Source: a virus. From it: a stretch of 64,000 nucleotides of DNA. Under the pieces are notes generated by a model. It ran no database searches. It had not been told where the DNA came from and saw only the letters and a program-made list of their open reading frames with translations. How positions within the stretch are numbered: position 1 is the first letter of the stretch; the number at the start of each line of letters is the position of its first letter. The translations under genes and the position numbers were made by a program. This document shows positions 36,930 to 61,260 of the stretch, one piece after another. The stretch is taken from IMG/VR virus record IMGVR_UViG_3300032731_001452, positions 5,218 to 69,217 of that record, one strand, 5' to 3'.

Positions 36930-39230
36930 CTAGCTATCTTGCAACTTATCCATGATGGTTTCGCGAAGAGACTTAACGTCGTCGGGGTGTTCGCGAAGAT
37001 ACTGGATGGTAGCCTCGCGACCGTTACCAATCCGATCCCCACCGTAACTATGCCAGTTACCGCTCTTCTCAATGAGATCAAACTCAAGAGCTAAATCAAG
37101 CGTCTCACAAAGCTGATCGATGCCGCGACCGAAGATAAGATCAACCTCAGCTAGACCAAACGGCGGGGCGAGCTTGTTTTTGACCACGCGTAACTTCAGT
37201 CGATTACCGATTCGAGTCTCACCCTTCTTGATGCCACCTAAGATACGAACGTCAATTCGAACCGACGAATAAAAACGAAGCGCCTTCCCGCCGCTGGTCG
37301 TCTCGGGATTTCCAAAACCACCCGTTCCGATCTTGAGTCGTGTTTGGTTAATGAAAATCACCATCGTTTTCGTCGTTCGCGTGTTAGCCACGAGCTTACG
37401 TAGTGCCTGACTCATCAGCCGGGCCTGTAGCCCTGGTAGGCTATCTCCCATGTCACCGGCTAATTCGGCTTTTGGAGTCAACGCTGATACCGAATCAACA
37501 ACGATGATGTCAATTGCGCCGGATCGAACAAGAGTGTCGACAATCTCCAACGCTTGCTCGCCGTAATCCGGTTGGCTGATTAGCATCTCTTCGACGTTAA
37601 CGCCCACGCCTTTCGCGAGCGAAGGATCGAGAGCTTGTTCGGCGTCGATAAAAGCAGCAATACCGCCCTGCTTTTGAACCTCTGCAATTGTGTGAAGTGC
37701 GAGGGTGGTATTGTGCGTCACGAATCCGTTAGCGTTAAGCGATGCGGTTTGCTCCATCGCGAAGTCAAACGTCGGTTCGGGCTCGTTCTCCGTTACGCTT
37801 TCAACCCGATCGTAGTAATACCAACGCTTACGAATCTCCGCTAATCTAGCTAAGATGATTGGATCGCCAATCTCTTTGAAAGCCTCCGAAATCAATTCAA
37901 GACGGTTGTACGTAACGAGCGCGCGTGGGGACGGCGCCATATAACAATCCATGAGGACGTTAAGCTCGCGGTTAGTCTCGGCGGAATCGTACAAATCTCG
38001 TAAAAGACCCCCTAAGCAAGGAATGGAATCATGGTTTGTTGAACCACCGTCTCCGTGTAATCGCAAAAGTTCGTCATGTTTCTTCGCTCGGGATGAAGAT
38101 CTAGTTCCCACCACTTGAATGAATTTACGAGCTGCATCACCAGCCATCGTTAACTGCCAATAATTATTATTGGGGTACTCCGCAACATGTTTATCGCGCA
38201 GTAAACCAATGATACCGAATCGTAGTTGGAGTAAGAGCTTTACGTCATCCAATAATTCGCGGCTAGCCGACACGGTTTCAATACACATCTTACTCGGGTG
38301 GATAAAACACTCACAATCAAAATACCCACGAAGTACCTCAAGAAGCGCGGCGTCATTGAGTCGACGAACTCGAGAGCCGACGATTTTATCTGGGCTATTA
38401 CAAGGTTCCCACCCCCAAGATTCGTAAAATTTCGCAGCCGCTTCTACGCTGTTGAAGTGATAATTTATCGACGCGGTGTTACTTCCGCTCGGATAAACTT
38501 TTGGCTCCACACCGAAAATCGAAGACCCTACTCGTGCAATAAACTCCTTGATATCCGGATCGTCATTTGTAAGCCCGAGTCGAACACGATTGAAATGACC
38601 GTCCGCGAGGCTTAATCCAGCAAAATAAGCCTCGTCCGCATTACAAGCCATCATAAATTCGTGATTACGAACAATCTCACGATCGCTCACGAGGTAATCA
38701 CCAACCTCAAGTTGTTTAACTTGCTTCCATACCCAAAAACCATTCTTGCTCATAACAAGTTGCGGCTGATTAGCGGTTGGACGAATGTGAGCACCGGAGA
38801 ACGAACGGATGGTAAAAGTGGGTTTACGGTTGTTGTGAGTGAAATGCGTCGTTTCTTCGATTTCACCGTTTCGGTTGTACAAAGGAAATTCCGACGCTGT
38901 CGTTCGATTGGTACAGGTTGCTTTCAAACCCTGCATTTTGAATATTTCACCGATAGTCAACAAACCATATGGAGTTCCAATTCGGGTGTCCGCGGGTAGA
39001 CACTTACCGCTTGATTCTGGGCCAAATATCTCGATTACACGACCACGCGGAAACCCACCAATATGTAACTCGTGGTCAAGCTTCATTGAGCCGGTGGTTA
39101 CGACGTCAACGTCCATGGGCTTATCGCCCATTTTCATAATCGCGCCCTTGCCGTACAGCTTCTCGATATCCTTCAACGCTTGTTCGTAACCAAACCCAAC
39201 CGGCTTACTTTCTTTCTTTTTCTTTGCCAC
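36930..39230 (-). CDS. recA: RecA recombinase with intein (about 335 aa after splicing)
   Basis: [19 protein letters not shown]|[23 protein letters not shown] and FINQ. Confidence 0.97.
37710..39002 (-). mobile_element. LAGLIDADG intein in the RecA P-loop (431 aa)
   Basis: Begins CLPADT, ends GFVTHN before Thr; motifs [10 protein letters not shown] and LRGYFDCEC. Confidence 0.95.
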
Positions 39231-39734: not shown

Positions 39735-42677
39735 TCAACTTCGACAAATATCGCACGTTCCGCACGTCCAGTCCGCCGGTTTGGATACATCACCGAAGTA
39801 GTCGAGAATCTGCTTTCGACGACACTTCGGTGTTTCGCAGAAGTCGATGATTTGCTGGACAAGCAGCTTAGCCATCCGACGTCGCTTGTCGATCTCAACC
39901 CAATCCATGGCGTCGTCGATGTCTTTCACTTCGATGAGCTTCACGCCACCGCTACGTTGCGGTGGCTTATACTCGATCGCCACGTTATTGAGGCTCCGCA
40001 AAGCCGCGGAGACGTGCTTCTTCTCCATCTCGAGCGCCTTCGCCATGTCAATGGTAGACACCTCAAACCACACGTGCTTTACGACACGCATTTCTTGCAG
40101 GTACTCAAGTACTTCCGCGGCTCGACCGCGGAACTTCTTCTTGGGTTCGATATGCGCCACTTCGCCGATATCGTTGGCGCGGAACTTGCGAACCACACCA
40201 GCCTTGAGCATGAAGTTCCAAACAGCGCCGATGTGGGCGTCTTGAATCCATTCGCCGATTTCAGCGGCAAAAGCACCCTGCGAAACGAACAGCTCGCCGC
40301 TAGGAATGTTACTGAGCCGTCGAATCGTATGTTCGTAGACAGCTCGGATAACGCCGTCAGGCGGCCACGACATTGCTACGAAGAAATCCTGAAGCGAACG
40401 GTCACCCGGTCGATACAGCAACGCTACGCGAGAAGGCTCGCCGTCACGACCGGCACGACCAATCTCTTGGTAGTAAGCCTCAACGGAACCCGGCATTTGC
40501 ATATGCGCGATACCGCGGATATTGGATTTATCGACGCCCATCCCAAACGCGTTCGTGGCCACGATGAGCTGCGCTTCATCATTCATGAAAGCGTCTTGTA
40601 CCGCCGTGCGTTTCTGCGCGGTCATTCCGCCGTGGTACGGTTTTGCCTTGAAGCCTGAACTACACAAAACGTCGGCGGTTTCTTCAACTTGCGAACGAGT
40701 TCCGCAGTACACAATCATCGAACCTTCGACGTTGTCGACGAACTCAAAGAGGGCGTCCAACTTCTGCGGTCCGTAAGTTTTGATTATGTCGATCTCGAGG
40801 TTGGGCCGATCGAATCCATGAACGAGTACGTTGGCGTTCTTCATCTCGAGCTGTTCCGCGATATCTTCACGAACCACCGCGGTCGCTGTTGCGGTAACGG
40901 CGAGACAAGTGGGGTTACCAAGCTGCTTTCGAACGTTAGCTAACTGCAAATACTTCGGCCTGAAGTCGTGACCCCACTTACTGATACAATGAGATTCGTC
41001 GATAGCTAACAGCGACACCTCAACGTCCAACTTACGCATGAACGTAGCCGTCAAACCTTCAGGTGCAATGAACAACGTCTTGATTCTACCCTCGTTTACG
41101 TTGACGATGGTAGCTTCTCGCGTGGCGTCGTTCATGGTGCTGTTGTAAGCTGACGCTGGAATGTTCAACTTCAACAAACCATCAACTTGGTCTTTCATGA
41201 GGCTGATGAGTGGGCTGATAACGATCGTGAGACCTGGAAGCATGAGTGAGGGGATCTGGTACGTCAGAGAGTTATGTAAAACAAACTCATCAGCAACAAA
41301 ACTAGCCTTAAATCCATTGTTTTGACTTTCGATAACAACGTCAAAAGTTTCTTTTTCTTCTACTGGTCCAAGATATTTTATCTCATCCCAGAAAATATCA
41401 TTCTTGGATAATAAATGACATTCGAAACCTTCAATGCGACCACTTCTTTTAGCAAACATCTCGCGACTCATTCGGCGAGAATTTTTAAGATAGAAGGAAC
41501 TGTCGAATACGTACGTCTTACTAAGCTTAACGAGACGCCTATCTCTATCCAACAAGTCCCAGTAGGAATAAGGAACGACATCGACGTTGGTGTTGGACTC
41601 GCTACTCTCCAACTTTCCCCACAACGCTCGGAAAGAATGAAATTTCTTACCAACTAACCACGGTTGGATAAGTTCGTTAAAGATTGCCAGGTCACCATGA
41701 CCCGAAATAGACAAGATCCAACTATCTCTAACGCCGCCTTGATACTTAGCGAGTTTGTATCGAAAACGAGACAAAATTCCGCATCGTAAAAACAAGTGTT
41801 GTAGTTGTTTGATTAACGCCTTAGAAGCCGATGTATATGCTACCGAATGCTCCTCAATCCACCCACCACCTGAAATTACTCTACCTAAAAATCTACAAAC
41901 CTGATCGGTAGACGTAAGAAACAATTGGCTAGGAACCACCCTGCTTGGCGAATGAACGCCTAATAATCCGTACTTTTTCAACAACAAATTCAAAGGGTTG
42001 CTACTAGCTCCAGCTTTTCCGTCTCGTCTACCCGGACGGGTGGTTGCGGATAGCTGCATTGAGCGTCCATTATACCATGGCGTACACCCTAAACTCGTAG
42101 TTAGGCAGCTACACAAATCCAGCAAGTCTTGATCTGCTTTGGTGTAATTAGGCGTTTGGCTGTAACGACTAGAACCATCGCATAGCATCAATGCGATTAT
42201 GTCTAATTCAACTTCTGGAATGAGTTGCGAACCATTCAGGTCAAACGAACGAGGCGTGGCTATAAGCTGACCCTCAACCAAATCTCGAACGGTTTGTTCG
42301 CCTCGGCCTGTAAATACTCGATGCTCCAAGGAAAGCCAAGTTTTCCTCCCGGAGCGTAGCCTAATCCACTTACCTTTCTTAACGCCACTAAGGATTACCT
42401 CCAAGGGCTTCACAATTCTTTGATATCCGCATTGATCGTGCGACACAACTTCAAACGGAATCCCAGCTTCCCATCGCCTATACAACTCTCTGCCTGACAC
42501 CACTTCGCCAGTGGATAACGGAACCTGAGCGTCGAGATGAACGCACTTTCCCGCGCCGGTTGGCGTTACAAATAACGTATCTCTACCAGAAAGAATCGAC
42601 TCAATCGTTTCAAGCTGACCGTCACGGAATGACGAGAAACCAAACCACTTCTCTAGAACTTCGATAGGATCGTTCAT
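39735..42677 (-). CDS. recQ: RecQ-family DNA helicase with intein
   Basis: FGFSSFRDGQ, PTGAGK|S, SPLISLMKDQV, IDESHCISKWGHDFRP, ATNAFGMGVDK, YYQEIGRAGRDG and the RQC Zn site CRR...CGTCDIC. Confidence 0.95.
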   Translation of the reverse strand: MNDPIEVLEKWFGFSSFRDGQLETIESILSGRDTLFVTPTGAGKCVHLDAQVPLSTGEVVSGRELYRRWEAGIPFEVVSHDQCGYQRIVKPLEVILSGVKKGKWIRLRSGRKTWLSLEHRVFTGRGEQTVRDLVEGQLIATPRSFDLNGSQLIPEVELDIIALMLCDGSSRYSQTPNYTKADQDLLDLCSCLTTSLGCTPWYNGRSMQLSATTRPGRRDGKAGASSNPLNLLLKKYGLLGVHSPSRVVPSQLFLTSTDQVCRFLGRVISGGGWIEEHSVAYTSASKALIKQLQHLFLRCGILSRFRYKLAKYQGGVRDSWILSISGHGDLAIFNELIQPWLVGKKFHSFRALWGKLESSESNTNVDVVPYSYWDLLDRDRRLVKLSKTYVFDSSFYLKNSRRMSREMFAKRSGRIEGFECHLLSKNDIFWDEIKYLGPVEEKETFDVVIESQNNGFKASFVADEFVLHNSLTYQIPSLMLPGLTIVISPLISLMKDQVDGLLKLNIPASAYNSTMNDATREATIVNVNEGRIKTLFIAPEGLTATFMRKLDVEVSLLAIDESHCISKWGHDFRPKYLQLANVRKQLGNPTCLAVTATATAVVREDIAEQLEMKNANVLVHGFDRPNLEIDIIKTYGPQKLDALFEFVDNVEGSMIVYCGTRSQVEETADVLCSSGFKAKPYHGGMTAQKRTAVQDAFMNDEAQLIVATNAFGMGVDKSNIRGIAHMQMPGSVEAYYQEIGRAGRDGEPSRVALLYRPGDRSLQDFFVAMSWPPDGVIRAVYEHTIRRLSNIPSGELFVSQGAFAAEIGEWIQDAHIGAVWNFMLKAGVVRKFRANDIGEVAHIEPKKKFRGRAAEVLEYLQEMRVVKHVWFEVSTIDMAKALEMEKKHVSAALRSLNNVAIEYKPPQRSGGVKLIEVKDIDDAMDWVEIDKRRRMAKLLVQQIIDFCETPKCRRKQILDYFGDVSKPADWTCGTCDICRS
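41271..42545 (-). mobile_element. LAGLIDADG intein in the RecQ Walker A motif (425 aa)
   Basis: Begins CVHLDA, ends FVLHN before Ser; motifs IALMLCDG and FLGRVISGGG, the second lacking the acidic residue. Confidence 0.95.
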
Positions 42678-42768
42678 GAACACCGCCTTCGAGGTGAATG
42701 ATAGCGGTTGAACGCGGAAGCAACCGTCAACTTGACAGATCTTACGGAGTGCCTATCGTTAAAAGACA

Positions 42769-42841
42769 GGGCGTGTAGTTCAGTGGAGAACGGTGGGAGT
42801 TCAGGCCCGCGTCGGTGTGGGTTCGACTCCCGCCACGCTCA
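42769..42841 (+). tRNA. tRNA-like RNA with aberrant 8-nt anticodon loop (AGTTCAGG; possible UCA anticodon)
   Basis: Acceptor GGGCGTG/CACGCTC, D-arm GTTC/GAAC, T-arm GTGGG-TTCGACT-CCCGC; no encoded CCA; TTGACA...TATCGT promoter upstream. Confidence 0.75.
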
Positions 42842-46324: not shown

Positions 46325-46410
46325 TGGCGGCTGGTACAAGATTCGAACTTGTGCGGGTGTCCCCGACCTCGGATTAGCAATCCGGCACCTTGCCACTCGG
46401 TCAACCAGCC
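46325..46410 (-). tRNA. tRNA-Ser(GCT)
   Basis: Cloverleaf with long variable arm, loop TT-GCT-AA, encoded GCCA end. Confidence 0.9.
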
Positions 46411-46418
46411 AGAAAATA

Positions 46419-46497
46419 TGGCTCCCCAGGTCCGGTTCGAACGGACGTACTACACGGCTTAACAGGCCGCAGCTAACCCCAACTCAGCTACTGGGGA
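46419..46497 (-). tRNA. tRNA-Asn(GTT)
   Basis: TCCCCAG/CTGGGGA acceptor, loop CT-GTT-AA, CCA. Confidence 0.88.
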
Positions 46498-46951
46498 ACA
46501 AACGAAAAATTTCAATCACGTTGTCATCGATTCTCTTCTGAACGTCTTTTGGAATTGGAACCTTACCTACCCCAAAATATTTACCAGTCAAGAACAAGCC
46601 GCACGTTCTGCTACAAGACGTAAACCTTGAACCTTTTGTTAAATGGGTCTGACGGTATTCGCGCTCAAAAACACAACCGCAATTAGGACATCGAAGCCGC
46701 GCCATTTGCCTTCCTCGCTCACGATTATGCTCGCTGTTGTGCTTCCCCTTCTTCTTCAACTCCAAATTTTCAAAACGATTATCACGCTTGTTTCGGTTCT
46801 CGTGGTGAACCACCTCATCGCTTTTTGGCACCACCCCCGTGCGTCTCCAGTAAACCAAATGATGCTCATAGCAGTATTTTCCACGGTACTTCTTACCTGG
46901 ATATTCTTCTAGAGCGACAACTAACTCGTATTCACCATTTCTCATGGCCAT
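46484..46951 (-). mobile_element. Free-standing HNH homing endonuclease in the tRNA cluster
   Basis: YEHHLV...VVHHENRNKRDNRFENLEL plus C-terminal CPNC/CSRTC; its stop overlaps the 5' end of tRNA-Asn. Confidence 0.88.
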
Positions 46952-46986
46952 ACGTTAACAGAACTCAAAGAAATGCTCTACCTATT

Positions 46987-47065
46987 TGGCAGGGGATACA
47001 GGGCTCGAACCCTCAACACCAGGATCTGGAATCCCGTACTCTATCCAGTTGGAGCTACTGACCCA
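46987..47065 (-). tRNA. Degenerate tRNA-Trp(CCA)
   Basis: Loop TT-CCA-GA and CCA end present, but acceptor TGGGTCA/ATCCCCT pairs only 3/7 and the T-arm is imperfect. Confidence 0.65.
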
Positions 47066-47149
47066 TATGCTATAGTTACGACGGGTAGTAACCTACCAGT
47101 TTCGCCACTGCTTCAACGCCTCGAGCTTCGGTTCGGGGCGTTGTCGATT

Positions 47150-47228
47150 TGGTGCGGGTAGTGAGACTTGAACTCACGGCCTCCTGCTTGGCAAGCAAGC
47201 GCTCTAAAACCAACTGAGCTATACCCGC
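47150..47228 (-). tRNA. tRNA-Gly(GCC)
   Basis: GCGGGTA/TACCCGC acceptor, loop TT-GCC-AA, ACCA end. Confidence 0.92.
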
Positions 47229-47237
47229 GTGTTGTTG

Positions 47238-47324
47238 TGGTACCGAGGGAGGGAGTCGAACCCTCACAGCCTCGCGGCTACTGGATCCTAAATCCAGCGC
47301 GTCTGCCAACTTCGCCACCCCGGT
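47238..47324 (-). tRNA. tRNA-Leu(TAG)
   Basis: Long variable arm, loop TT-TAG-GA, ACCA end. Confidence 0.92.
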
Positions 47325-47617
47325 TCACAACACATGCATCTCTCCACCCCCGGCCGCCGCCAGGTTGGTGGGCGAACGGGGGTAACTGACTACGTACCGA
47401 GTAGCTGGAGCTGTCCTAAGAATTGGCGGGACAAGGTGTGCATGATGAGAACGTAACACGACCTCGACGTTTTTGGAAGCGAAATCAACTTGTCTAAACC
47501 ACCCAACTTGACGACGCGGTCAACTAGGCAAATTTAGTAAAGCTGGCGCCACCAAGTTGCCCTGACGGCGCCGCAACTCCTTCTACACATGGCAGGCGAG
47601 CTGGTAGAAGTATAACA

Positions 47618-47694
47618 TGGTGGGCGGTGCCAGGATCGAACTGGCGACCTTGACCTTGTAGGGGTCCTGTTCTCCCTAACTGAACTAACCGCCC
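47618..47694 (-). tRNA. tRNA-Val(TAC) with C33
   Basis: GGGCGGT/ACCGCCC acceptor, loop CC-TAC-AA, ACCA end. Confidence 0.85.
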
Positions 47695-48041
47695 GCGATT
47701 CTGTACCGTTCGTTCGATTTCCACGGATCTCGTACACCTCGTCCGTTGAGATGTTTCAAAGCCATCTCTTGAGCCTTCTTAGTTTCGTATCCAGGCCAGG
47801 ACGTACGCCACTTATTCCTACCGAACCAGCCACCTTTGTACTCGAGCCGGAACTTCTTAGACCGAGCCCTCTTATGGTGCCACGCTTCTTCGTAGCAACT
47901 TTCGATGGTTACGGATTGACGGACGACACGACGCTTCGTCGAAGATTCCAACCACCACGGGTCGCGGTACCAATGGTGTCCTTGGTTACGATGTTTCCGT
48001 GCGAACGCACGGGTTTCCCCATTTTGCCAGTTGACATGCAT
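47685..48041 (-). CDS. Basic, Trp-rich hypothetical protein
   Basis: AAGGAG RBS; preceded by a 6-codon uORF MCIAST; stop overlaps tRNA-Val. Confidence 0.6.
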   Translation of the reverse strand: MHVNWQNGETRAFARKHRNQGHHWYRDPWWLESSTKRRVVRQSVTIESCYEEAWHHKRARSKKFRLEYKGGWFGRNKWRTSWPGYETKKAQEMALKHLNGRGVRDPWKSNERYRIAGG

Positions 48042-48098
48042 GTGTTAGCTCTCCTTTACGTTGAAGCTATACACATGGTGAATCTCCTTTCTGAAGGA

Positions 48099-48123
48099 AG
48101 GTGGGGCGCATCCTGCGCCCCAC
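48099..48123 (-). terminator. Terminator-like hairpin in a 5' leader
   Basis: GGTGGGGCGCA-GGA-TGCGCCCCACC followed by TTCCTT; extended -10 TGCTATAAT at 48195-48203. Confidence 0.6.
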
Positions 48124-48209
48124 CCGGGTTCGGGAATACCTGGCAGGGTGGTCCCGTACTCACTTGAGACTAACGTCCCGTGATTGGCTTAGGAATTATA
48201 GCAGACCGA

Positions 48210-48533
48210 CTAACTCTTTGTGGCGTCGAGATCGAAAACTGGATTACCGCTGAACTGGACGCCGGTCAAAACGATTCGCATCAAATTCTCATCGTCGTGA
48301 TGGCGCGAAATACCGTAGCCGGTAAACTTCCCGTCGTACGCGAACTTTTGCCGATTCGGAACGACTCGAATCAATCCTTCACCCGGAAGATCATCGGGTA
48401 GTTCATCCATGAGGTTGACGTGCTTCACCAACTCAAGGGTGTCGCCGTTTGTCTTGACAGACTTGAATCCAACGGCCTTGCCGTTGATAGTTACCGCAAA
48501 GTTGTAACCTTTGATGATCATGATAATCTCCAA
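48210..48533 (-). CDS. Hypothetical beta-rich protein, faint tail-tube resemblance
   Basis: YNFAVTINGKAVGFKSV; start uncertain. Confidence 0.5.
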   Translation of the reverse strand: MEIIMIIKGYNFAVTINGKAVGFKSVKTNGDTLELVKHVNLMDELPDDLPGEGLIRVVPNRQKFAYDGKFTGYGISRHHDDENLMRIVLTGVQFSGNPVFDLDATKS

Positions 48534-48699
48534 ATCAAAAATGAGCGCCTAACAGCTGGCACGCGGGAGAGTTGATCAAGCTCTCAGAAACAATGACCTT
48601 TACCGCGCCTGTGTCTAGGGTGGTCGAACCCTCAAGGTTCCTGGTTTGCGCTCGGTAATACGAACCCTTTTTCCATAAGTTGATTATAGCGGTTGAACT

Positions 48700-48891
48700 T
48701 TAAGATTCAGCGCAACTCGAGGGAGATACGCTGTTGTCGACGATCGTCATTACCCCACACCGTTTGCAATTTGGGGATTTTGTCGTAGGCAACACGAACA
48801 CAGCCTTACTGCACGAAGGACGCCTAAAATACGAAGCTAGCGCCGGCATAAGGTCGTCTTCGTTAAACGTTTTCGTTCGCTGTTTACTCAT
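48700..48891 (-). CDS. Small Cys-containing protein
   Basis: Probable ATG 48891 (MSKQRTKTF); PSC and CKRCG. Confidence 0.45.
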   Translation of the reverse strand: MSKQRTKTFNEDDLMPALASYFRRPSCSKAVFVLPTTKSPNCKRCGVMTIVDNSVSPSSCAES

Positions 48892-48913
48892 TTCGCGATT
48901 CGGTACAAAACCA

Positions 48914-48936
48914 AAAGTTTGCGGCTTGCAAACTTT
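48914..48936. repeat. Dispersed palindrome copy 4
   Basis: Identical 23-mer; shares the flank acaaaacca with copy 3. Confidence 0.95.
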
Positions 48937-48996
48937 TGAAAAGTGCGAGCTTTCCACTCGCTGGGTACGGAATCTCTTCCCTTTCCATGAACAATA

Positions 48997-49214
48997 GGTC
49001 AGGAGGCGGGTATCTAATCCGCTCTTTTATTCGAGACGTCCGTACTCTGGATGGGCCGCGGACGAGTTCTTATCCTCTTAGTCACCACAATCGGGACTCG
49101 GGAGGTATAGAGTGCGATTTCGCCCCATCCCAGTTTCGCTGTTCGTTACTCTCATCCTGCGAAACAAAAATCGTCAGCCACGGATAATCTTGCGTACATC
49201 CCGTTACCCCGACC
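48997..49214 (-). ncRNA. Candidate tmRNA/tRNA-like mini-RNA (about 218 nt)
   Basis: Ends pair GGTCGGG/CCTGACC; second helix GGGATGT/ACGTCTC; T-arm-like GCGG-ATTAGATAC-CCGC; internal ORF ADDFCFAG*. Confidence 0.45.
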
Positions 49215-49318
49215 GTTCCTGCTGACACTACGCTGGCGACTTTGTCCCTCTTTGCGTAGTTATCACAATTGCCAAATTATGATGTTTGTAATCACTGTTA
49301 GCTAACTGTAATTAGTTC

Positions 49319-49660
49319 TGGTGGACTCGGCGGGAGTCGAACCCGCGTGTCACGTGTTTTCGCAAGACGTCTACGTAGTCTAGCTCATCTACCCTCAGAG
49401 CGGGGTTTGTCGGAACTTTCCCCGACGGTCAACAACTCTTTATTTCAAGGTAACTTCGGTTGCCTAAGTTTCACCTCTATCGCCGTGTCGTTATGCCTTT
49501 TCTCGCTACCCAGCGAATTCTCGCAAGAAAGACACCCGGGCTCACACGGTCCCGGGAAGCAACAGCTTACGCTGCGGCCTGAAGAGGAGTTTCGTCAACT
49601 CGTTTTCATTTTACTACGCAATCTTGGTTGCAATCACCCGATCGAAACCGTTACGAGCCC
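49319..49660 (-). ncRNA. ssrA: tmRNA (SsrA)
   Basis: 5' GGGCTCGTAACGGTTTCGAT; 3' GACACGCGGGTTCGACTCCCGCCGAGTCCACCA; G3:U70 and A73; tag frame 49567-49596 gives (A)DETPLQAAA*. Confidence 0.93.
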
Positions 49661-49859
49661 ATTTCAAAGATCTATCGTTCTTCCAATGTAAAGACTCTCA
49701 AGCCGATCCTCAAGGTGCTACTCGAGAAATCCCCAACGCCTTTGCCTGCCCGCTTCACGATCTCGAAAACTGTTGTCGAAACCATCCACGGGCCATCCAG
49801 CAAATAGCGCGCGCTAAGTTGCTTGAAAGCCTTTAGATTGAAAGAACACGAACAATTTT

Positions 49860-50750
49860 TCGGCCACCCGGGACTCCCCTATGGGCGGGCGGCCACCCCA
49901 GAGAATACCCCCGGGGAATACTTGAGCAGTGTTTACAACAGCATGCTCAGGCTGGGCTCATATGCTCACGACTTTCAACTACCAAGTCTAGCAAATCTGC
50001 CAACGGTTTCCGCAATTTTTGGCAGCTACGCTTCTTCGCGTTCTTCGGTGCGCACTGGCAACCGAATTACTTGGTCGGTTTTGCCCACCCCACCGACCAA
50101 AGGGTTAAACAACTACTGAGCTTAAGAGGTGGACCAAGTTAAGCTCCGGGCAGCTCCAAGACCGTAGCCCGGGAGCGCCCCAAGATCGCTCTTGGGGGAT
50201 GAAAAGTGCTGAGCTAGGTACTCAGCGTGGAGACCTTCCGTCTCTTTGGGTAGTTATACCGTATTTATTTCGTCAAAGCCCTCTACACTACCAGAGGTAC
50301 TAAGCTATCTACTAGTTCATGAGGACAGTAGCTGCCCGGTGCCGGCAATCATGTGGCCTAGCCACCAGCAGGAGTTCTCATCCTACAGACCACTTACGGA
50401 TGAGGTGTCTAAATTTGCCAGGTCTAGGACCATCAGCCCGGCTGAGGCGCATGCCATTATGCTAACTAGCCCTGCCTTAGTTTTCATCAACGTTAGTGTC
50501 AGCGACTAACGCAGACTACAGTCACTTTTATACCCGGTGACTACAGGCTGAACACGCATGGGGCGTGGTTCATCTAAAAACGATTGCAGCCAGGATTTTC
50601 ACCTGGAACCCAAGGTTTCCTCCGTCTTTCAACGGACTATTACTCACACGTAGCTTAGGTTTGCATCAATTCCTCCGAATTTAATCGGTCTACAATCAAA
50701 CTTCCAACGTTCACGCAACCTTTTGCGTCAACGTTTTATTATAGTTTCAA
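49860..50750 (-). ncRNA. Candidate large structured non-coding RNA(s)
   Basis: About 900 nt with no credible CDS and more than 15 adjacent hairpins; sigma70 promoter at 50764-50793. Confidence 0.6.
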
Positions 50751-50763
50751 ACAACTGAGATAG

Positions 50764-50793
50764 GTTATAGCATCGACTAGCTAGCTGCGTCAA
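50764..50793 (-). promoter_or_regulatory. Sigma70 promoter driving the ncRNA/tmRNA region
   Basis: TTGACG-18-TATAAC with TG extension; AGCTAGCT palindrome in the spacer. Confidence 0.7.
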
Positions 50794-50797
50794 GGAC

Positions 50798-51196
50798 CTA
50801 ATCGTCTTTTTCTGGCCACCCCAAAGCACGCATCGCCGGACGACTCATTAGGCGGCCTTGAAGCCCGTGAATGTCGTGACAAGTCTCTTCATCATCCATC
50901 GGGTGAAGCTTCGGAAGCGCGAAGATTCGCGTAGCCGCTTCGGTAACAGCATCCAACGCTTCGATCTCTTGATCGTTCATGCCTGCGTCTTGTAAGCACT
51001 GAAGATCCTTGGGTACGCCACCTTCCTTGAGTCGAAGACGATCGTCAAGCTCGACGTAGGCTTTGATCCACGTTTCAGCCCACTCCATCAATTCCTTACG
51101 AGCTGCGTATTGCACGTGTTCTGATTCGCGCGGCACTAACTGAAGCTTCTCGATAAGTTCGCGAAACTGGCGTAACGGTTCGTCAATGTTTCTCAT
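50798..51196 (-). CDS. Hypothetical protein (probably leaderless)
   Basis: True start likely ATG 51196, since the track ORF runs into tRNA-Gln; LPKLHPMDDEETCHDIHGLQ motif. Confidence 0.65.
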   Translation of the reverse strand: MRNIDEPLRQFRELIEKLQLVPRESEHVQYAARKELMEWAETWIKAYVELDDRLRLKEGGVPKDLQCLQDAGMNDQEIEALDAVTEAATRIFALPKLHPMDDEETCHDIHGLQGRLMSRPAMRALGWPEKDD

Positions 51197-51213
51197 GATT
51201 ATATTATAGCGGT

Positions 51214-51289
51214 TGGTTGGGGAGGTAGGGCTTGAACCTACAACATCTGGCTTCAAAGGCCAGTGCTCTACCAGTTGAGCTACACCCCA
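51214..51289 (-). tRNA. tRNA-Gln(TTG)
   Basis: TGGGGTG/CTCCCCA acceptor (one mismatch), loop CT-TTG-AA, ACCA end. Confidence 0.9.
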
Positions 51290-51296
51290 ATAACCG

Positions 51297-51788
51297 TTAT
51301 TCCTTCCGCACCTCTTCCGCGAACGGTGTGTTGTCGATAATGCCTACCTCAAGCTGGCGCTGGCCCGTAGCTTTGCGATATTTCTCAGCTTGAGGCTCAT
51401 TCGACGAGAAAAACAAAAGATCTTCATGAACACGCGTTCTAAAAACACCCTCTCGAAACAAATCTACCAGCTGATCGCGATCTGTTTCCTCAACAACTTT
51501 TTTAGTTAAAGTCCACGCAACATCGTGGTCTGGTACGTAGTCGCGAACAACAATCTCGAAACAACCCCCTTTGTCAACGCAGTCTACTTCACGCCGGTTG
51601 AACAACGCTTCTACCACCGCTTCATGAACGTACTCAGTTATTTCACTCACGCTTCGTTTACGCTCAGCTTCCAGTACGCCACGAACGAACGTGGACGTTG
51701 AAACATTTTGCTCGTCAACCTGTTTTTCAATCCAAACCGCCAGTTCCAAAGGAATTCGTACCGACATCATTCTGTCATTCGGGCTCAT
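51297..51788 (-). CDS. Ribbon-helix-helix protein with C-terminal domain
   Basis: MMSVRIPLELAVWIEKQVDEQNVSTSTFVRGVLE. Confidence 0.75.
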   Translation of the reverse strand: MSPNDRMMSVRIPLELAVWIEKQVDEQNVSTSTFVRGVLEAERKRSVSEITEYVHEAVVEALFNRREVDCVDKGGCFEIVVRDYVPDHDVAWTLTKKVVEETDRDQLVDLFREGVFRTRVHEDLLFFSSNEPQAEKYRKATGQRQLEVGIIDNTPFAEEVRKE

Positions 51789-51839: not shown

Positions 51840-52319
51840 CTATTCCCCCGCCAACAAATCAATCCAGTGATCGACGTACACGCGACCAAGACGACCGTCC
51901 CAAAGGTGGGGGTTGATATACATCGTCTTAGCTTCCGCCGAACCGACTTTACCCCCTGGATTAGTCGCGCCAAGCTGGTGGGCGAACTTAAGAACCGTCT
52001 CGGTCATTCGATAACAACCCTCATTCGTCATGGACACCATCAACGCCTTTTCGCCATGAAAAACACCGATAGCCGCCTGAACGCAAATTGATGTGGTTCG
52101 ACCCTTTCCAAACTCATGTGATTCATACCACTCAATCATCGGCGCCAAACCAAGTTTGCGGTACGCTTCTTCTAGGCTACGAACGCCTTGACGTTGGCGC
52201 TCAACGATAGCTGAACGGATCACGTCCGACACGGTTCCGTCCTGTAGTAGCGCTTCTTTCTCAAGCCATCGTTTGTCGCTCGGCTCGACACGAATTTCCA
52301 ACCGTTCCGTTTTCCCCAT
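51840..52319 (-). CDS. Ribbon-helix-helix protein with C-terminal domain
   Basis: Start ATG 52319 after GGAGG; KTERLEIRVEPSDKRWLEKEALLQDGTVSDVIRSAI. Confidence 0.75.
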   Translation of the reverse strand: MGKTERLEIRVEPSDKRWLEKEALLQDGTVSDVIRSAIVERQRQGVRSLEEAYRKLGLAPMIEWYESHEFGKGRTTSICVQAAIGVFHGEKALMVSMTNEGCYRMTETVLKFAHQLGATNPGGKVGSAEAKTMYINPHLWDGRLGRVYVDHWIDLLAGE

Positions 52320-52331
52320 TTCGACCTCCAG

Positions 52332-52377
52332 TTTGTAGTACGATCGCATTTGTACTACAAATGTACGTACGAGTCAA
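52332..52377 (-). promoter_or_regulatory. Promoter with inverted-repeat operator (RHH autoregulation)
   Basis: TTGACT-17-TACAAA overlapped by TTTGTAGTAC-N10-GTACTACAAA. Confidence 0.65.
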
Positions 52378-60784: not shown

Positions 60785-61260
60785 GAAACACCCAACTTCT
60801 CGATGGCTTCCACCACCTGTTCGTCCATCAGGCCCTCGTATCCGGTCGTCTTGACCAAACAATCACCGATAGCGTCCATGTCCATGGAATCATCGTCGAT
60901 GGCGATGTACGTCGCCTCAGTAAGTCCTACGTCCTTCAACCACTATTGAATCTGAAATCCGCGCACACCATCGTGCCCGTTGCCCGTTTTACCAATCACG
61001 TTGCCCACGAACCCATGGGCGTCCAACAGCGCCTGCAACTCTTTAGCTGAGCGGCCAATTCGCCAAGTCGACGATACGACAACGGCCGCTCCGGTGGCCT
61101 CAACAATCCGATTAAGCCGCGCAACCGCTTCTACGTCTACGTTTTCGAAGAAGAACCCATCCTTATTCTTCCCCGCGTCGTTCATCCGCTCCATCCAGAT
61201 GAGACTATTCAGCACGCCGTCTACGTCAAGGAAGATGAGCTTATTGAAAGTATTTCTCAT
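60781..61260 (-). pseudogene. HAD-domain protein (Swiss-army-knife RNA repair HAD-like) interrupted by an in-frame TAG
   Basis: IFLDVDGVLN, VVSSTWR and RGFQIQ*WL...YIAIDD...GL; TAG at 60943-60945. Confidence 0.8.

What the first reader, a model, noticed from the sequence alone, without database searches (positions are those of the whole stretch)
49860..50750. ~900-nt hairpin-dense non-coding region with its own promoter: candidate large phage ncRNA
Seen: in an otherwise tightly packed genome this stretch has no credible CDS. It is tiled by adjacent stems, given here on the + strand: TTGGTCGGT/ACCGACCAA, GAGCTTAA/TTAAGCTC, CCGGGC/GCCCGG, CCCCAAGA/TCTTGGGG, GCTGAG/CTCAGC, GAGAC/GTCTC, CGTTAGT/ACTAACG, AGTCAC/GTGACT, CCAGG/CCTGG, TGAGCA/TGCTCA and a terminal GGCCACCCG/CGGGCGGCC. 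GTAGT recurs at junctions on the minus strand, and a TTGACG-18-TATAAC promoter sits directly upstream. Known: giant structured RNAs such as GOLLD and ROOL occur in phages next to tRNA clusters. Inference: this is a GOLLD/ROOL-class or a new large RNA, or several smaller RNAs, co-transcribed with tmRNA.
Basis: partly seen in the sequence, partly recalled or inferred. Interest (0 to 1): 0.85.

Follow-up and report, generated by a model that had tools for sequence, protein, structure and literature searches.

The report
Hairpin-rich RNA leader of phage tmRNA
A gene-free, hairpin-packed stretch of about 1.1 kb just upstream of a ribosome-rescue RNA (tmRNA) gene in an uncultured freshwater phage most likely makes non-coding RNA, but no relatives were found, so its role and even its conservation remain untested.

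Summary
The minus strand folds better than shuffles and holds about twice the expected number of long helices. It also carries three GNRA/UNCG-capped hairpins; the plus strand has none.

The coordinates are too narrow. The ORF-free block is 48534-50797 (2.26 kb), with a tmRNA gene (49319-49660, minus) in the middle. The strongest and most strand-specific structure is a 200-nt Y-shaped element (49661-49860) that abuts the tmRNA.

It is not GOLLD or ROOL: neither model, nor any other Rfam family, matches at E<=10. The predicted long-range closing helix is no better than chance, so a single giant fold is not shown.

My reading is a promoter-driven, hairpin-string 5' part of a polycistronic stable-RNA precursor that runs into the tmRNA.

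No homologue was found in any collection I could search, so covariation could not be tested. No RNA run holds the stretch, so expression could not be tested either.

Earlier agents of this scan described similar ORF-free hairpin islands beside tRNA clusters in other phages. None shares sequence with this one.

I rate it a plausible but orphan candidate of moderate interest.

The parts
50764..50793 (-). P1, promoter-like site TTGACG-18-TATAAC. Its -10 part (GCTATAAC, 50771-50764) belongs to a recurrent phage motif, GCTATAAY.
   Evidence: 2 matches of TTGACG-N10-20-TATAAC in the window, 0.08 expected. GCTATAAY occurs 6 times, all on the minus strand, 1.33 expected, and 0 of 100 shuffles reach 6; three of the six sit 6 nt before an ATG (leaderless genes), while P1 and the 48202 copy precede non-coding structured stretches. 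One search's sigma-70 scan does not list P1. Promoter function is inferred.
50246..50757 (-). Segment A, the 5' part of the putative transcript. It contains a bipartite hairpin (50735-50706) and a predicted multi-stem junction (50697-50582) closed by GAUUGUAG/CUGCAAUC. That junction holds two paralogous 23-nt modules (50692-50670 and 50639-50617), each a hairpin followed by GGAGGAA. Three further hairpins lie at 50572-50490.
   Evidence: Helices and pair probabilities 0.74-1.00 come. The modules are repeat family D3, 78% identical; one stem pair differs as A-U against U-A (read from the sequence). The GAAA-capped hairpin is at 50636-50621. Each GGAGGAA is followed 5 nt later by a start codon and a 3- or 4-codon frame. 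Overall structure is only moderate: z -2.09 minus, -2.78 plus.
50228..50276 (-). Box 1: a TTGACG-12-TATAAC look-alike followed by a 30-nt element (ATAACTACCCAAAGAG...) that recurs 55 nt downstream of the tmRNA.
   Evidence: Repeat D1 is 77% identical over 30 nt. The 17-nt core is found twice in the window at <=3 mismatches, 0.16 expected, and 0 of 100 shuffles reach 2. The 12-nt spacing is too short for a sigma-70 promoter (established knowledge). Its role as a processing site or start site is unknown.
50208..50226 (-). Internal terminator-like hairpin GCUGAGU-ACCUA-GCUCAGC followed by ACUUUUCAUC.
   Evidence: Listed by the consensus scan; that scan found 7 terminator-like sites against 7.0 expected, so there is no enrichment. 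Pair probability 1.00.
49861..50245 (-). Segment B: a string of about 13 consecutive local hairpins with short linkers, including GCGA- and UACG-capped stems.
   Evidence: Stems verified. Helix probabilities are 0.71-1.00. Tetraloops are at 50189 and 50166. z is -3.13 minus against -2.17 plus. The 300-nt windows from 49800-50099 to 50100-50399 give z -1.94 to -3.05.
49661..49860 (-). Element L: a Y-shaped structure with a 26-bp closing stem (49847-49821 with 49703-49677, one bulge). It encloses a long arm and a short hairpin and ends 16 nt before the tmRNA 5' end. It lies outside the finding's coordinates but is contiguous with them.
   Evidence: MFE -78.9 kcal/mol, z -6.00, and 0 of 200 shuffles fold as well. 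The opposite strand gives -43.5 kcal/mol, z -1.38, and 18 of 200 shuffles fold as well. Helix probabilities are 0.70-1.00. A role as an RNase III-type processing stem is inferred.
49319..49660 (-). tmRNA gene.
   Evidence: Rfam RF00023 scores 56.1 bits (gathering score 47), model positions 1-374. ARAGORN does not call it. Its nearest relative among fetched loci is L116, with a shared tag-frame block.
48900..49318 (-). Segment C: structured non-coding stretch downstream of the tmRNA. It begins with box 2 (49263-49234) and ends at the palindromic terminator.
   Evidence: z -4.73 minus and -4.44 plus, 100 shuffles each.
48911..48939 (-). Intrinsic-terminator-like palindrome (12-bp stem followed by UUUUGU), the probable end of the unit. 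It is one of six dispersed copies in the window.
   Evidence: 6 copies at <=2 mismatches, 0 expected.

Best explanation
The stretch is the 5' part of a phage stable-RNA transcription unit on the minus strand.

Transcription most likely starts at P1 (about 50757) and runs through about 1.1 kb of hairpin-rich non-coding RNA: segments A and B, then the Y-shaped element L. It continues into the tmRNA gene and segment C and stops at the palindromic terminator (48939-48911).

The upstream RNA is a string of mostly local, stable hairpins, several capped by GNRA or UNCG tetraloops. It is not one ornate globular fold.

I infer two processing steps. A double-strand-specific nuclease of the RNase III type cuts in the 26-bp stem of L, and RNase P cuts at the tmRNA 5' end. 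Together they would separate the tmRNA from the upstream RNA. The upstream RNA would then persist as one or several stable hairpin RNAs that either act in trans or serve as a processing and stability scaffold for the tmRNA precursor.

Shown here: absence of coding capacity, structure above chance, strand bias of the structure, the gene order and the motifs. Inferred: transcription, co-transcription with the tmRNA, the processing steps and any function.
For: No coding capacity.

Structure above chance. z is -4.69 for the 901-nt minus strand. There are 15 helices of >=8 bp against 6.8 +/- 2.1 in shuffles, and 10 long-stem hairpins against 4.4 +/- 1.65. In one search most windows over neighbouring genes fall between -1.9 and +2.15; one exception overlapping a tRNA gene is given in the Against line.

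RNA-level, minus-strand signature. Three GNRA/UNCG-capped hairpins lie on the minus strand (0 of 70 shuffles reach 3) and none on the plus strand. Element L gives z -6.00 on the minus strand and -1.38 on the plus strand, because many of its pairs are G-U.

Orientation and context. The tmRNA and six of the seven tRNA genes are on the minus strand, on both sides of the stretch.

Promoter. P1 carries the GCTATAAY motif, found 6 times, only on the minus strand and only at the starts of units. A second copy at 48202 likewise precedes a structured ORF-poor stretch (47695-48209; z -3.55; codon scores 0.04 and 0.07) that runs into tRNA-Val. I saw no sigma-70-like promoter between L and the tmRNA, by reading. 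The only listed terminators on this strand are a weak one at 50226-50208 and the strong one at 48939-48911.

Modules. Two pairs of paralogous short elements subdivide the RNA. One stem pair differs by a double, compensatory change between the paralogues (sequence).

A parallel elsewhere. In L116, the locus with the nearest tmRNA, the spacers of a tRNA/tmRNA array are also structured on the gene strand only (z -2.8, -2.8 and -2.0, against -1.5, +0.8 and -0.5).
Against: No homologue of the stretch was found, so there is no conservation or covariation evidence at all.

No RNA data exist, so transcription is unproven.

Folding z-scores are a blunt tool. The true tmRNA scores only -1.5 on either strand. 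Segment A is no better on the minus strand than on the plus strand (-2.09 against -2.78). Segment C is symmetrical (-4.73 against -4.44). The part 50250-50700 is near chance. One window over a neighbouring gene and tRNA-Gln (51150-51449) reaches z -2.65, as low as some island windows.

Many stems are perfect Watson-Crick palindromes, which fold equally well as DNA or on the other strand.

P1 fails the tool's own promoter rule.

An internal terminator-like hairpin at 50226-50208 could end transcripts before they reach the tmRNA.

Only 3 of 20 other tmRNA genes with the same 3' end have a strongly structured 200-nt upstream region, so a structured leader is not a general feature of such genes.

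The tetraloop count rests on one MFE prediction.
Confidence: 0.53

Rival explanations
1. It is one large, intricately folded RNA of a new class, comparable in kind to GOLLD or ROOL. It would be made next to tRNA/tmRNA genes and fold into a defined tertiary or multimeric structure.
For: Its size (0.9-1.1 kb), phage origin and position among tRNA/tmRNA genes match what is reported for GOLLD and ROOL (PMC5737381, passages read). Of the expected base pairs, 99 of 350 span more than 100 nt, and a 20-bp composite helix (50460-50435 with 49958-49935, P about 0.83) would close a 520-nt domain. GNRA tetraloops and a predicted multi-stem junction are present.
Against: No match to GOLLD (RF02032), to ROOL (RF03087) or to any other large-RNA model at E<=10. 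A long-range helix of >=12 bp appears in 10 of 70 shuffles, so the domain closure is not above chance. A test for loop-loop complementarity found nothing beyond shuffled loops: the observed maximum was 6 bp and the shuffled mean maximum 5.6. Most of the signal comes from local hairpins. Paralogous boxes and a terminator-like hairpin subdivide the stretch.
Confidence: 0.12
2. It is a non-functional spacer: leftover DNA between RNA genes. Its hairpins would be decayed palindromic elements, terminators or mobile-element scars without a role of their own.
For: No homologue is known. This phage scatters at least one palindrome six times over the window. It also carries mobile elements: two inteins and an HNH gene inside the tRNA cluster. 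Many stems are perfect palindromes with no strand preference. The part 50250-50700 folds at chance level.
Against: The genome is otherwise tightly packed; the other gaps are <=478 nt. Helix density is about twice the shuffled expectation. The stable tetraloops are found only on the RNA-gene strand. Element L is strongly strand-specific. The sequence was identical over every piece of the block that was laid in runs from two studies (X3 and X4 of study P1, X5 of study P2), and the block was not fully covered. That only shows a young or clonal population.
Confidence: 0.2
3. It is a cis-acting regulatory leader, of the riboswitch or attenuator kind, that controls how much tmRNA is made.
For: A phage tmRNA linked to a glutamine riboswitch has been reported for phage Melnitz (PMC9004378, passages read). 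Element L sits directly before the tmRNA. An internal terminator-like hairpin (50226-50208) could act as an attenuator.
Against: No riboswitch or leader family matches. The only hit in the stretch was c-di-GMP-I-GGC at 16.9 bits against a gathering score of 59, and a narrower search did not reproduce it. A length of 1.1 kb is far more than any known leader needs (established knowledge).
Confidence: 0.1
4. It is a DNA-level element, such as a replication origin, packaging site or array of protein-binding palindromes.
For: There are many perfect inverted repeats, and segments A and C fold equally well on both strands.
Against: The palindromes all differ in sequence, so they are not repeated binding sites (one search finds only short two-copy families). 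GC content is ordinary at about 0.50, and cumulative GC skew shows no turn here. The tetraloop and G-U asymmetries point to RNA.
Confidence: 0.03

Closest known systems
GOLLD (Rfam RF02032) and ROOL (Rfam RF03087) large RNAs
   Same: A large non-coding stretch in a phage, next to tRNA-type genes and possibly co-transcribed with them. That context is described for both families in PMC5737381 (passages).
   Different: Neither covariance model matches at E<=10. The predicted fold is a chain of local hairpins; conserved multi-stem junctions and pseudoknots are not demonstrated. No family of homologues exists to define a consensus.
RNA species I and II of the phage T4 tRNA gene region
   Same: RNAs of unknown function encoded inside a phage tRNA gene cluster. 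The Figure 1 legend of PMC2330249 shows them as boxes in the T4 tRNA region (passage). That they are small, stable and processed from the tRNA precursor is recalled, not read.
   Different: Those are short (recalled: roughly 120-140 nt). This stretch is 0.9-1.1 kb and adjoins a tmRNA.
Phage-encoded tmRNA with an associated regulatory RNA (OM43 phage Melnitz)
   Same: A phage carries its own tmRNA, which is rare: 402 of 18,146 phage genomes in PMC9004378 (passages). A structured RNA element is attached to it.
   Different: There the element is a recognised glutamine riboswitch in a two-piece tmRNA. Here the tmRNA is one-piece and the upstream RNA matches no known family.
ORF-free hairpin islands beside tRNA clusters in other phages, as described by earlier agents of this scan
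   Same: The same picture: a gap of 0.5-2.6 kb next to phage tRNA genes, dense in hairpins, judged to be arrays of small structured RNA genes, often with a tmRNA or tmRNA-like module.
   Different: Those are mostly enterobacterial phages whose modules are shared among many records. This one shares no sequence with any window of the scan and carries a complete tmRNA. Those notes are unchecked AI notes, and I did not test them.
RNase III processing stems of rRNA operons and phage T7 early transcripts (recalled, not looked up)
   Same: A long, nearly perfect duplex (26 bp in element L) sits between two RNA products of one transcript.
   Different: Nothing here shows cleavage. The host and its RNases are unknown.

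Membership tests
GOLLD RNA (RF02032) | Match to the family covariance model at or near its gathering score (150 bits) | tested here: not met
   0 matches at E<=10 in the whole 69-kb record (4 candidates scored); the all-family cmscan of 47600-51400 at E<=10 lists no GOLLD hit.
GOLLD RNA (RF02032) | Located near tRNA genes, often in phage or prophage DNA | tested here: met
   tRNA genes lie at 51214-51289 and 46325-47694 and the tmRNA at 49319-49660, all on the same strand, in a virus record. The feature is as described in PMC5737381.
ROOL RNA (RF03087) | Match to the family covariance model (gathering score 99.1 bits) | tested here: not met
   0 candidates. The tool warns that its control genomes also gave nothing, so that call alone is weak. 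(all families, E<=10, permissive filters) also lists no ROOL hit.
ROOL RNA (RF03087) | Conserved complex fold: six multi-stem junctions and three pseudoknots (PMC5737381) | tested here: inconclusive
   Single-sequence prediction gives mostly local hairpins and one or two junctions. The long-range helix is not above chance, and there is no loop-loop signal. Conservation cannot be tested without homologues.
tmRNA (RF00023), for the neighbouring gene only | Full-length match above the gathering score | tested here: met
   56.1 bits against 47, model positions 1-374. The finding's own stretch gives no tmRNA-type hit. A tmRNA_permuted hit of 18.3 bits (E 0.84) lies at 49198-49346, outside the stretch.
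Known riboswitch and leader families (for example c-di-GMP-I-GGC RF03167, and the T-box and glnA RNA families, whose names I recall) | Match to a family model | tested here: not met
   The only hit is RF03167 at 16.9 bits (gathering score 59, E 1.6) at 50581-50646. It is absent when 50520-50780 is searched alone.
Stable RNAs of phage tRNA clusters (T4 RNA species I and II) | Accumulates as a discrete stable RNA processed from the tRNA-cluster transcript | not testable with these tools
   No RNA run holds the stretch, and the host is unknown.

The most novel reading that the evidence does not exclude
The 0.9-1.1 kb upstream RNA is a new class of large phage RNA that is made together with the phage's own tmRNA. 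It would work with or on the translation-rescue machinery, for example as a scaffold or decoy for ribosomes, SmpB or RNases during infection. On this reading its two hairpin-plus-GGAGGAA modules with 3-4-codon mini-frames would be ribosome-engaging sites.
Probability: 0.12. Interest if true: 0.75.

Novelty: new member of a known kind. Interest (0 to 1): 0.4.

Why it matters
Phage tRNA and tmRNA islands are turning out to hold many unannotated structured RNAs, and what they do during infection is an open question. This case pairs a complete phage tmRNA with more than a kilobase of hairpin-rich RNA that appears to belong to the same unit, in a lineage with almost no sequenced relatives. If it is transcribed and conserved, it would add a new RNA family and a concrete system for asking why phages bring their own ribosome-rescue RNA and what accompanies it. 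As it stands it is a single-sequence candidate. Its value depends on finding relatives or transcripts.

Tried and rejected
Homologue hunting all came back empty for the stretch.
- blastn (word 11) of 49660-50800 against 50,697 phage records and 72,556 plasmids gave no match. The same search of 47600-49330 and of the tmRNA against phages gave no match.
- Flanking proteins P0001 and P0002 in viral contigs gave no relatives.
- P0001 against 5.8 billion proteins found only itself (1 hit among 19 candidates).
- The M16 peptidase gave 18 loci at <=38% identity. The RecQ C-terminal half gave 4 loci at <=38%. The 510-aa protein gave none.
- The portal gave one real relative at 79% identity (L053). Its 17-kb record has no island; the best DNA match was E 0.16.
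- The repeated-box pattern in viral contigs gave 33 loci, all chance 16-20-nt matches.
- The tmRNA 3'-end pattern gave 0 genome contigs with CCA. Without CCA it gave 14 genome contigs, mostly archaeal and CPR MAGs, and 64 metagenome loci. nhmmer matched those 64 only at the tmRNA or tRNA parts.
- A tRNA-Gln pattern in viral contigs gave 0.
- nhmmer --max of six island segments against all 137 fetched loci gave nothing below E 2.3.
- These collection scans need exact words, so 'no homologue' is a weak negative. No profile or nhmmer search of the whole collections was possible.

Population variation. Runs X3-X5 carry the same sequence over the pieces that were laid (X3 left about 50391-50550 uncovered). 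Only one difference (50581 C>T) falls inside the stretch, so there is no micro-covariation to use.

RNA evidence. No RNA holder was listed.

Ideas dropped.
- A CsrB-like GGA sponge: GGA is not among the enriched words.
- A diverged tandem copy of the tmRNA: the two short similarities D1 and D2 are not colinear.
- Similarity between segment B and segment C beyond the box: the pairwise alignment shows none.
- A kissing-loop between neighbouring hairpins at 50146-50071: I saw an 8-nt complementarity by eye, but the loop test gave no support.
- tRNA remnants: no tRNA hit at E<=10 inside the stretch.
- An internal promoter P2: its 12-nt spacing is too short.
- Host identification from the tmRNA end failed.

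Literature. Searches turned up no description of such a leader, but they were generic and are not proof that it is unpublished. Table S1 of PMC9004378 (phage tmRNAs) and the supplementary motif files of PMC5737381 (224 motifs) could hold a related motif that I could not see. I saw only the listing and the start of the abstract of the cryo-EM preprint 10.1101/2024.12.08.627333.
Full report
What the DNA is. The window is bases 5218-69217 of a 69,217-base linear virus record. CheckV estimates the record as about 40% complete, and the stretch occurs once in it. The record encodes a portal protein, a prohead protease, and RecA and RecQ that each carry an intein. The portal is under 27% identical to those of the best-matching cultured phages. 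Near-identical sequence is held by six public runs from three studies, labelled freshwater, viral and aquatic metagenome. The host is unknown.

Checking the observation. The sequence at 49860-50750 has 7-25 stops in every frame. The longest ORFs that overlap it are 98 and 87 codons on the plus strand. Their codon-usage score is at the level of a spurious ORF inside the tmRNA gene: 0.04 and 0.08 against -0.04. The neighbouring genes P0001, P0002, P0003 and 51840-52349 score 0.31-0.55. Recoding TGA, TAG or TAA opens no spanning frame. That test mattered because the phage carries a tRNA with an 8-nt anticodon loop containing UCA. Pfam matched 0 of 7 island ORFs, and PHROGs gave one weak hit to an ORF outside the finding.

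The ORF-free block is larger than reported. It runs from 48534 to 50797 (2.26 kb) and is the largest gap in a window whose other gaps are <=478 nt. In its middle lies a tmRNA gene on the minus strand (49319-49660; RF00023, 56.1 bits against a gathering score of 47). tRNA genes on the same strand flank the block.

Is the structure more than chance? The 901-nt minus strand folds at -333.8 kcal/mol against -296.0 +/- 8.1 for 20 dinucleotide shuffles (z -4.69). The plus strand gives z -4.16. I scanned 43.5-56.4 kb on the minus strand in 300-nt windows with 25 shuffles each. Most windows over neighbouring genes fall between z -1.9 and +2.15. One window that overlaps tRNA-Gln reaches -2.65, and windows that overlap tRNA genes or the ORF-poor stretch 47695-48209 also go lower. 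The windows from 49650-49949 to 50100-50399 reach -1.9 to -4.7, the windows from 48750-49049 to 49050-49349 reach -2.3 to -3.8, and the windows 47850-48149 and 48000-48299 reach -3.8 and -4.6. The windows 50250-50549 and 50400-50699 are near chance at +0.10 and -1.38.

In the MFE of 49661-50760 there are 15 uninterrupted helices of >=8 bp, against 6.8 +/- 2.1 (max 11) in 70 shuffles. There are 10 hairpins with terminal stems of >=6 bp against 4.4 +/- 1.65. So 'hairpin-dense' is real. The z-score is an insensitive measure, though: the bona fide tmRNA scores only -1.5.

RNA or DNA, and which strand? Two results point to RNA read from the minus strand. First, three hairpins are capped by GAAA, GCGA and UACG, tetraloops of the stable GNRA/UNCG kinds. 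The 70 shuffles give a mean of 0.31 such hairpins and none reaches three. The plus-strand fold has none. Second, the 200 nt between the finding and the tmRNA (49661-49860, 'L') fold into a Y-shaped structure of -78.9 kcal/mol with z -6.00 (0 of 200 shuffles as good). The complementary strand reaches only -43.5 kcal/mol with z -1.38, because many pairs are G-U. Against this, segment A (50246-50760) and segment C (48900-49318) fold about equally on both strands, and many stems are perfect palindromes.

Anatomy on the minus strand. P1 is TTGACG-18-TATAAC at 50793-50764. The tool's own promoter scan does not list it, because it requires a T at the last -10 position. However, its -10 region, GCTATAAC, belongs to the motif GCTATAAY. 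That motif occurs six times in the window, always on the minus strand, against 1.33 expected, and 0 of 100 shuffles reach six. Three copies lie 6 nt before an ATG and so look like leaderless genes. P1 and the copy at 48202 instead precede non-coding structured stretches that run into the tmRNA and into tRNA-Val.

Downstream of P1 come the following elements.
- A bipartite hairpin at 50735-50706.
- A predicted junction at 50697-50582. It contains two paralogous 23-nt modules, each a hairpin followed by GGAGGAA, then 5 nt, a start codon and a 3- or 4-codon frame. One stem pair differs as A-U against U-A between the two copies.
- Three more hairpins.
- A poorly structured part.
- A 30-nt box at 50257-50228 that recurs at 49263-49234, just after the tmRNA.
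- A terminator-like hairpin at 50226-50208.
- A run of about 13 back-to-back hairpins down to 49862.
- Element L. Its 26-bp closing stem (49847-49821 with 49703-49677) ends 16 nt before the tmRNA 5' end.

After the tmRNA comes structured segment C and a strong terminator-like palindrome at 48939-48911. That palindrome is one of six dispersed copies in the window.

One giant RNA or a string of modules? The pair-probability analysis predicts a composite helix (50460-50435 with 49958-49935) that would close a 520-nt domain. Long-range helices of >=12 bp arise in 10 of 70 shuffles, so this is not evidence. A test for loop-loop complementarity gave nothing above shuffled loops. The paralogous boxes and the internal terminator-like hairpin suggest subdivision. 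I therefore favour a chain of local hairpin modules. A single large fold is not excluded.

Comparison with known families. A cmscan of 47600-51400 against all 4,227 Rfam families at E<=10 finds only the tmRNA, tRNAs and noise. Within the stretch the only hit is c-di-GMP-I-GGC at 16.9 bits against a gathering score of 59, and a narrower search does not reproduce it. Direct searches of the whole record with GOLLD (RF02032) and ROOL (RF03087) give no match at E<=10. For ROOL the tool's control genomes were also silent, so one search is the better test. The context does resemble GOLLD and ROOL, which are described as often near tRNAs and in prophages, possibly co-transcribed with them (PMC5737381, passages). 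Other parallels are the RNA species I and II shown in the T4 tRNA gene region (PMC2330249, figure legend passage) and a phage tmRNA linked to a riboswitch, in a survey where only 402 of 18,146 phage genomes had a tmRNA (PMC9004378, passages).

Relatives. None was found for the stretch; the searches and their limits are listed under Tried and rejected. Among 64 metagenome loci that share the tmRNA 3' end, nhmmer matched only tmRNA or tRNA parts. The nearest tmRNA (L116) sits in a tRNA array whose spacers are also structured on the gene strand only: z -2.8, -2.8 and -2.0, against -1.5, +0.8 and -0.5. They show no sequence similarity to this island. Only 3 of 20 such tmRNA genes have a strongly structured 200-nt upstream region. 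Earlier agents of this scan reported similar hairpin islands next to tRNA clusters of other phages and read them as arrays of small RNA genes. Those are unchecked notes, and no window of the scan shares sequence with this one.

Verdict. The GOLLD/ROOL reading fails its membership test. The most likely explanation is a promoter-driven, hairpin-string 5' portion of a stable-RNA precursor that continues into the phage tmRNA, with element L as the likely processing stem. I give this a confidence of about 0.53. Transcription, processing, conservation and function are all untested because neither homologues nor RNA data could be obtained.

Noticed in passing
window 42769-42841 (+); also L070 5533-5607 (-): ARAGORN calls a tRNA with a four-base 'ttca' anticodon, meaning an 8-nt anticodon loop (Rfam tRNA score 44.5 bits). 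A tRNA of the same odd kind lies about 0.7 kb from a tmRNA in metagenome locus L070 (and, by its nhmmer matches, in L078 and L091), so the pairing of tmRNA with this tRNA may recur.
   Followed up: partly
window 49542-49610 (-), inside the tmRNA; L116 3429-3497: The window's tmRNA and the tmRNA of L116 each hold a 22-codon open frame of the same length. Both encode a shared ELTKLLF block whose four codon differences are all synonymous. Neither frame ends in the usual Ala-Ala degron. The window's tmRNA also lacks about 30 nt present in L116 after the 5' stem, and ARAGORN does not call it.
   Followed up: partly
window 47695-48209 (-): This is a second ORF-poor structured stretch (z -3.55 minus, -2.30 plus). 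The two overlapping ORFs there have codon scores of 0.04 and 0.07 and no Pfam or PHROG hit. It starts after a GCTATAAT motif at 48202-48195 and runs into tRNA-Val, so it is probably another structured leader or RNA gene.
   Followed up: partly
window 48900-49318 (-): The stretch downstream of the tmRNA is also structured (z -4.73 minus, -4.44 plus) and begins with the second copy of the 30-nt box. Rfam gives only an 18.3-bit tmRNA_permuted hit (E 0.84) at 49198-49346.
   Followed up: partly
window 16000, 24200, 39712, 48914, 57495, 62698 (+ coordinates): A 23-bp palindrome, AAAGTTTGC-N5-GCAAACTTT, is dispersed six times, and five copies are identical. The copy at 48914 is the terminator-like hairpin that ends the RNA island. 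In read laying, contigs break at this element.
   Followed up: partly
window 50655-50692 and 50600-50639 (-): There are two tandem modules: a hairpin, then GGAGGAA, 5 nt, a start codon and a frame of only 3 or 4 codons (MQT*, MGSR*). They recall the lambda 'bar' minigenes (recalled, not checked). They could be ribosome-engaging sites or chance.
   Followed up: no
window 36930-39230 and 39735-42683 (-); 46484-46951 (-): RecA and a RecQ-type helicase each carry an intein with a LAGLIDADG domain, and an HNH endonuclease gene sits inside the tRNA cluster. This part of the genome is rich in selfish elements.
   Followed up: no
window 60943-61260 (-): A 105-aa protein matches the HAD domain of 'Swiss Army Knife' RNA repair proteins (PF18143, E 1.5e-17). 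It is the only family hit among the 20 proteins scanned against Pfam.
   Followed up: no
window 47417-47467, 48250-48298, 49260-49284: Run X3 holds short low-depth contigs with clustered differences (8, 7 and 3 changes). This suggests a diverged strain in the same water that could supply the missing comparative data.
   Followed up: no
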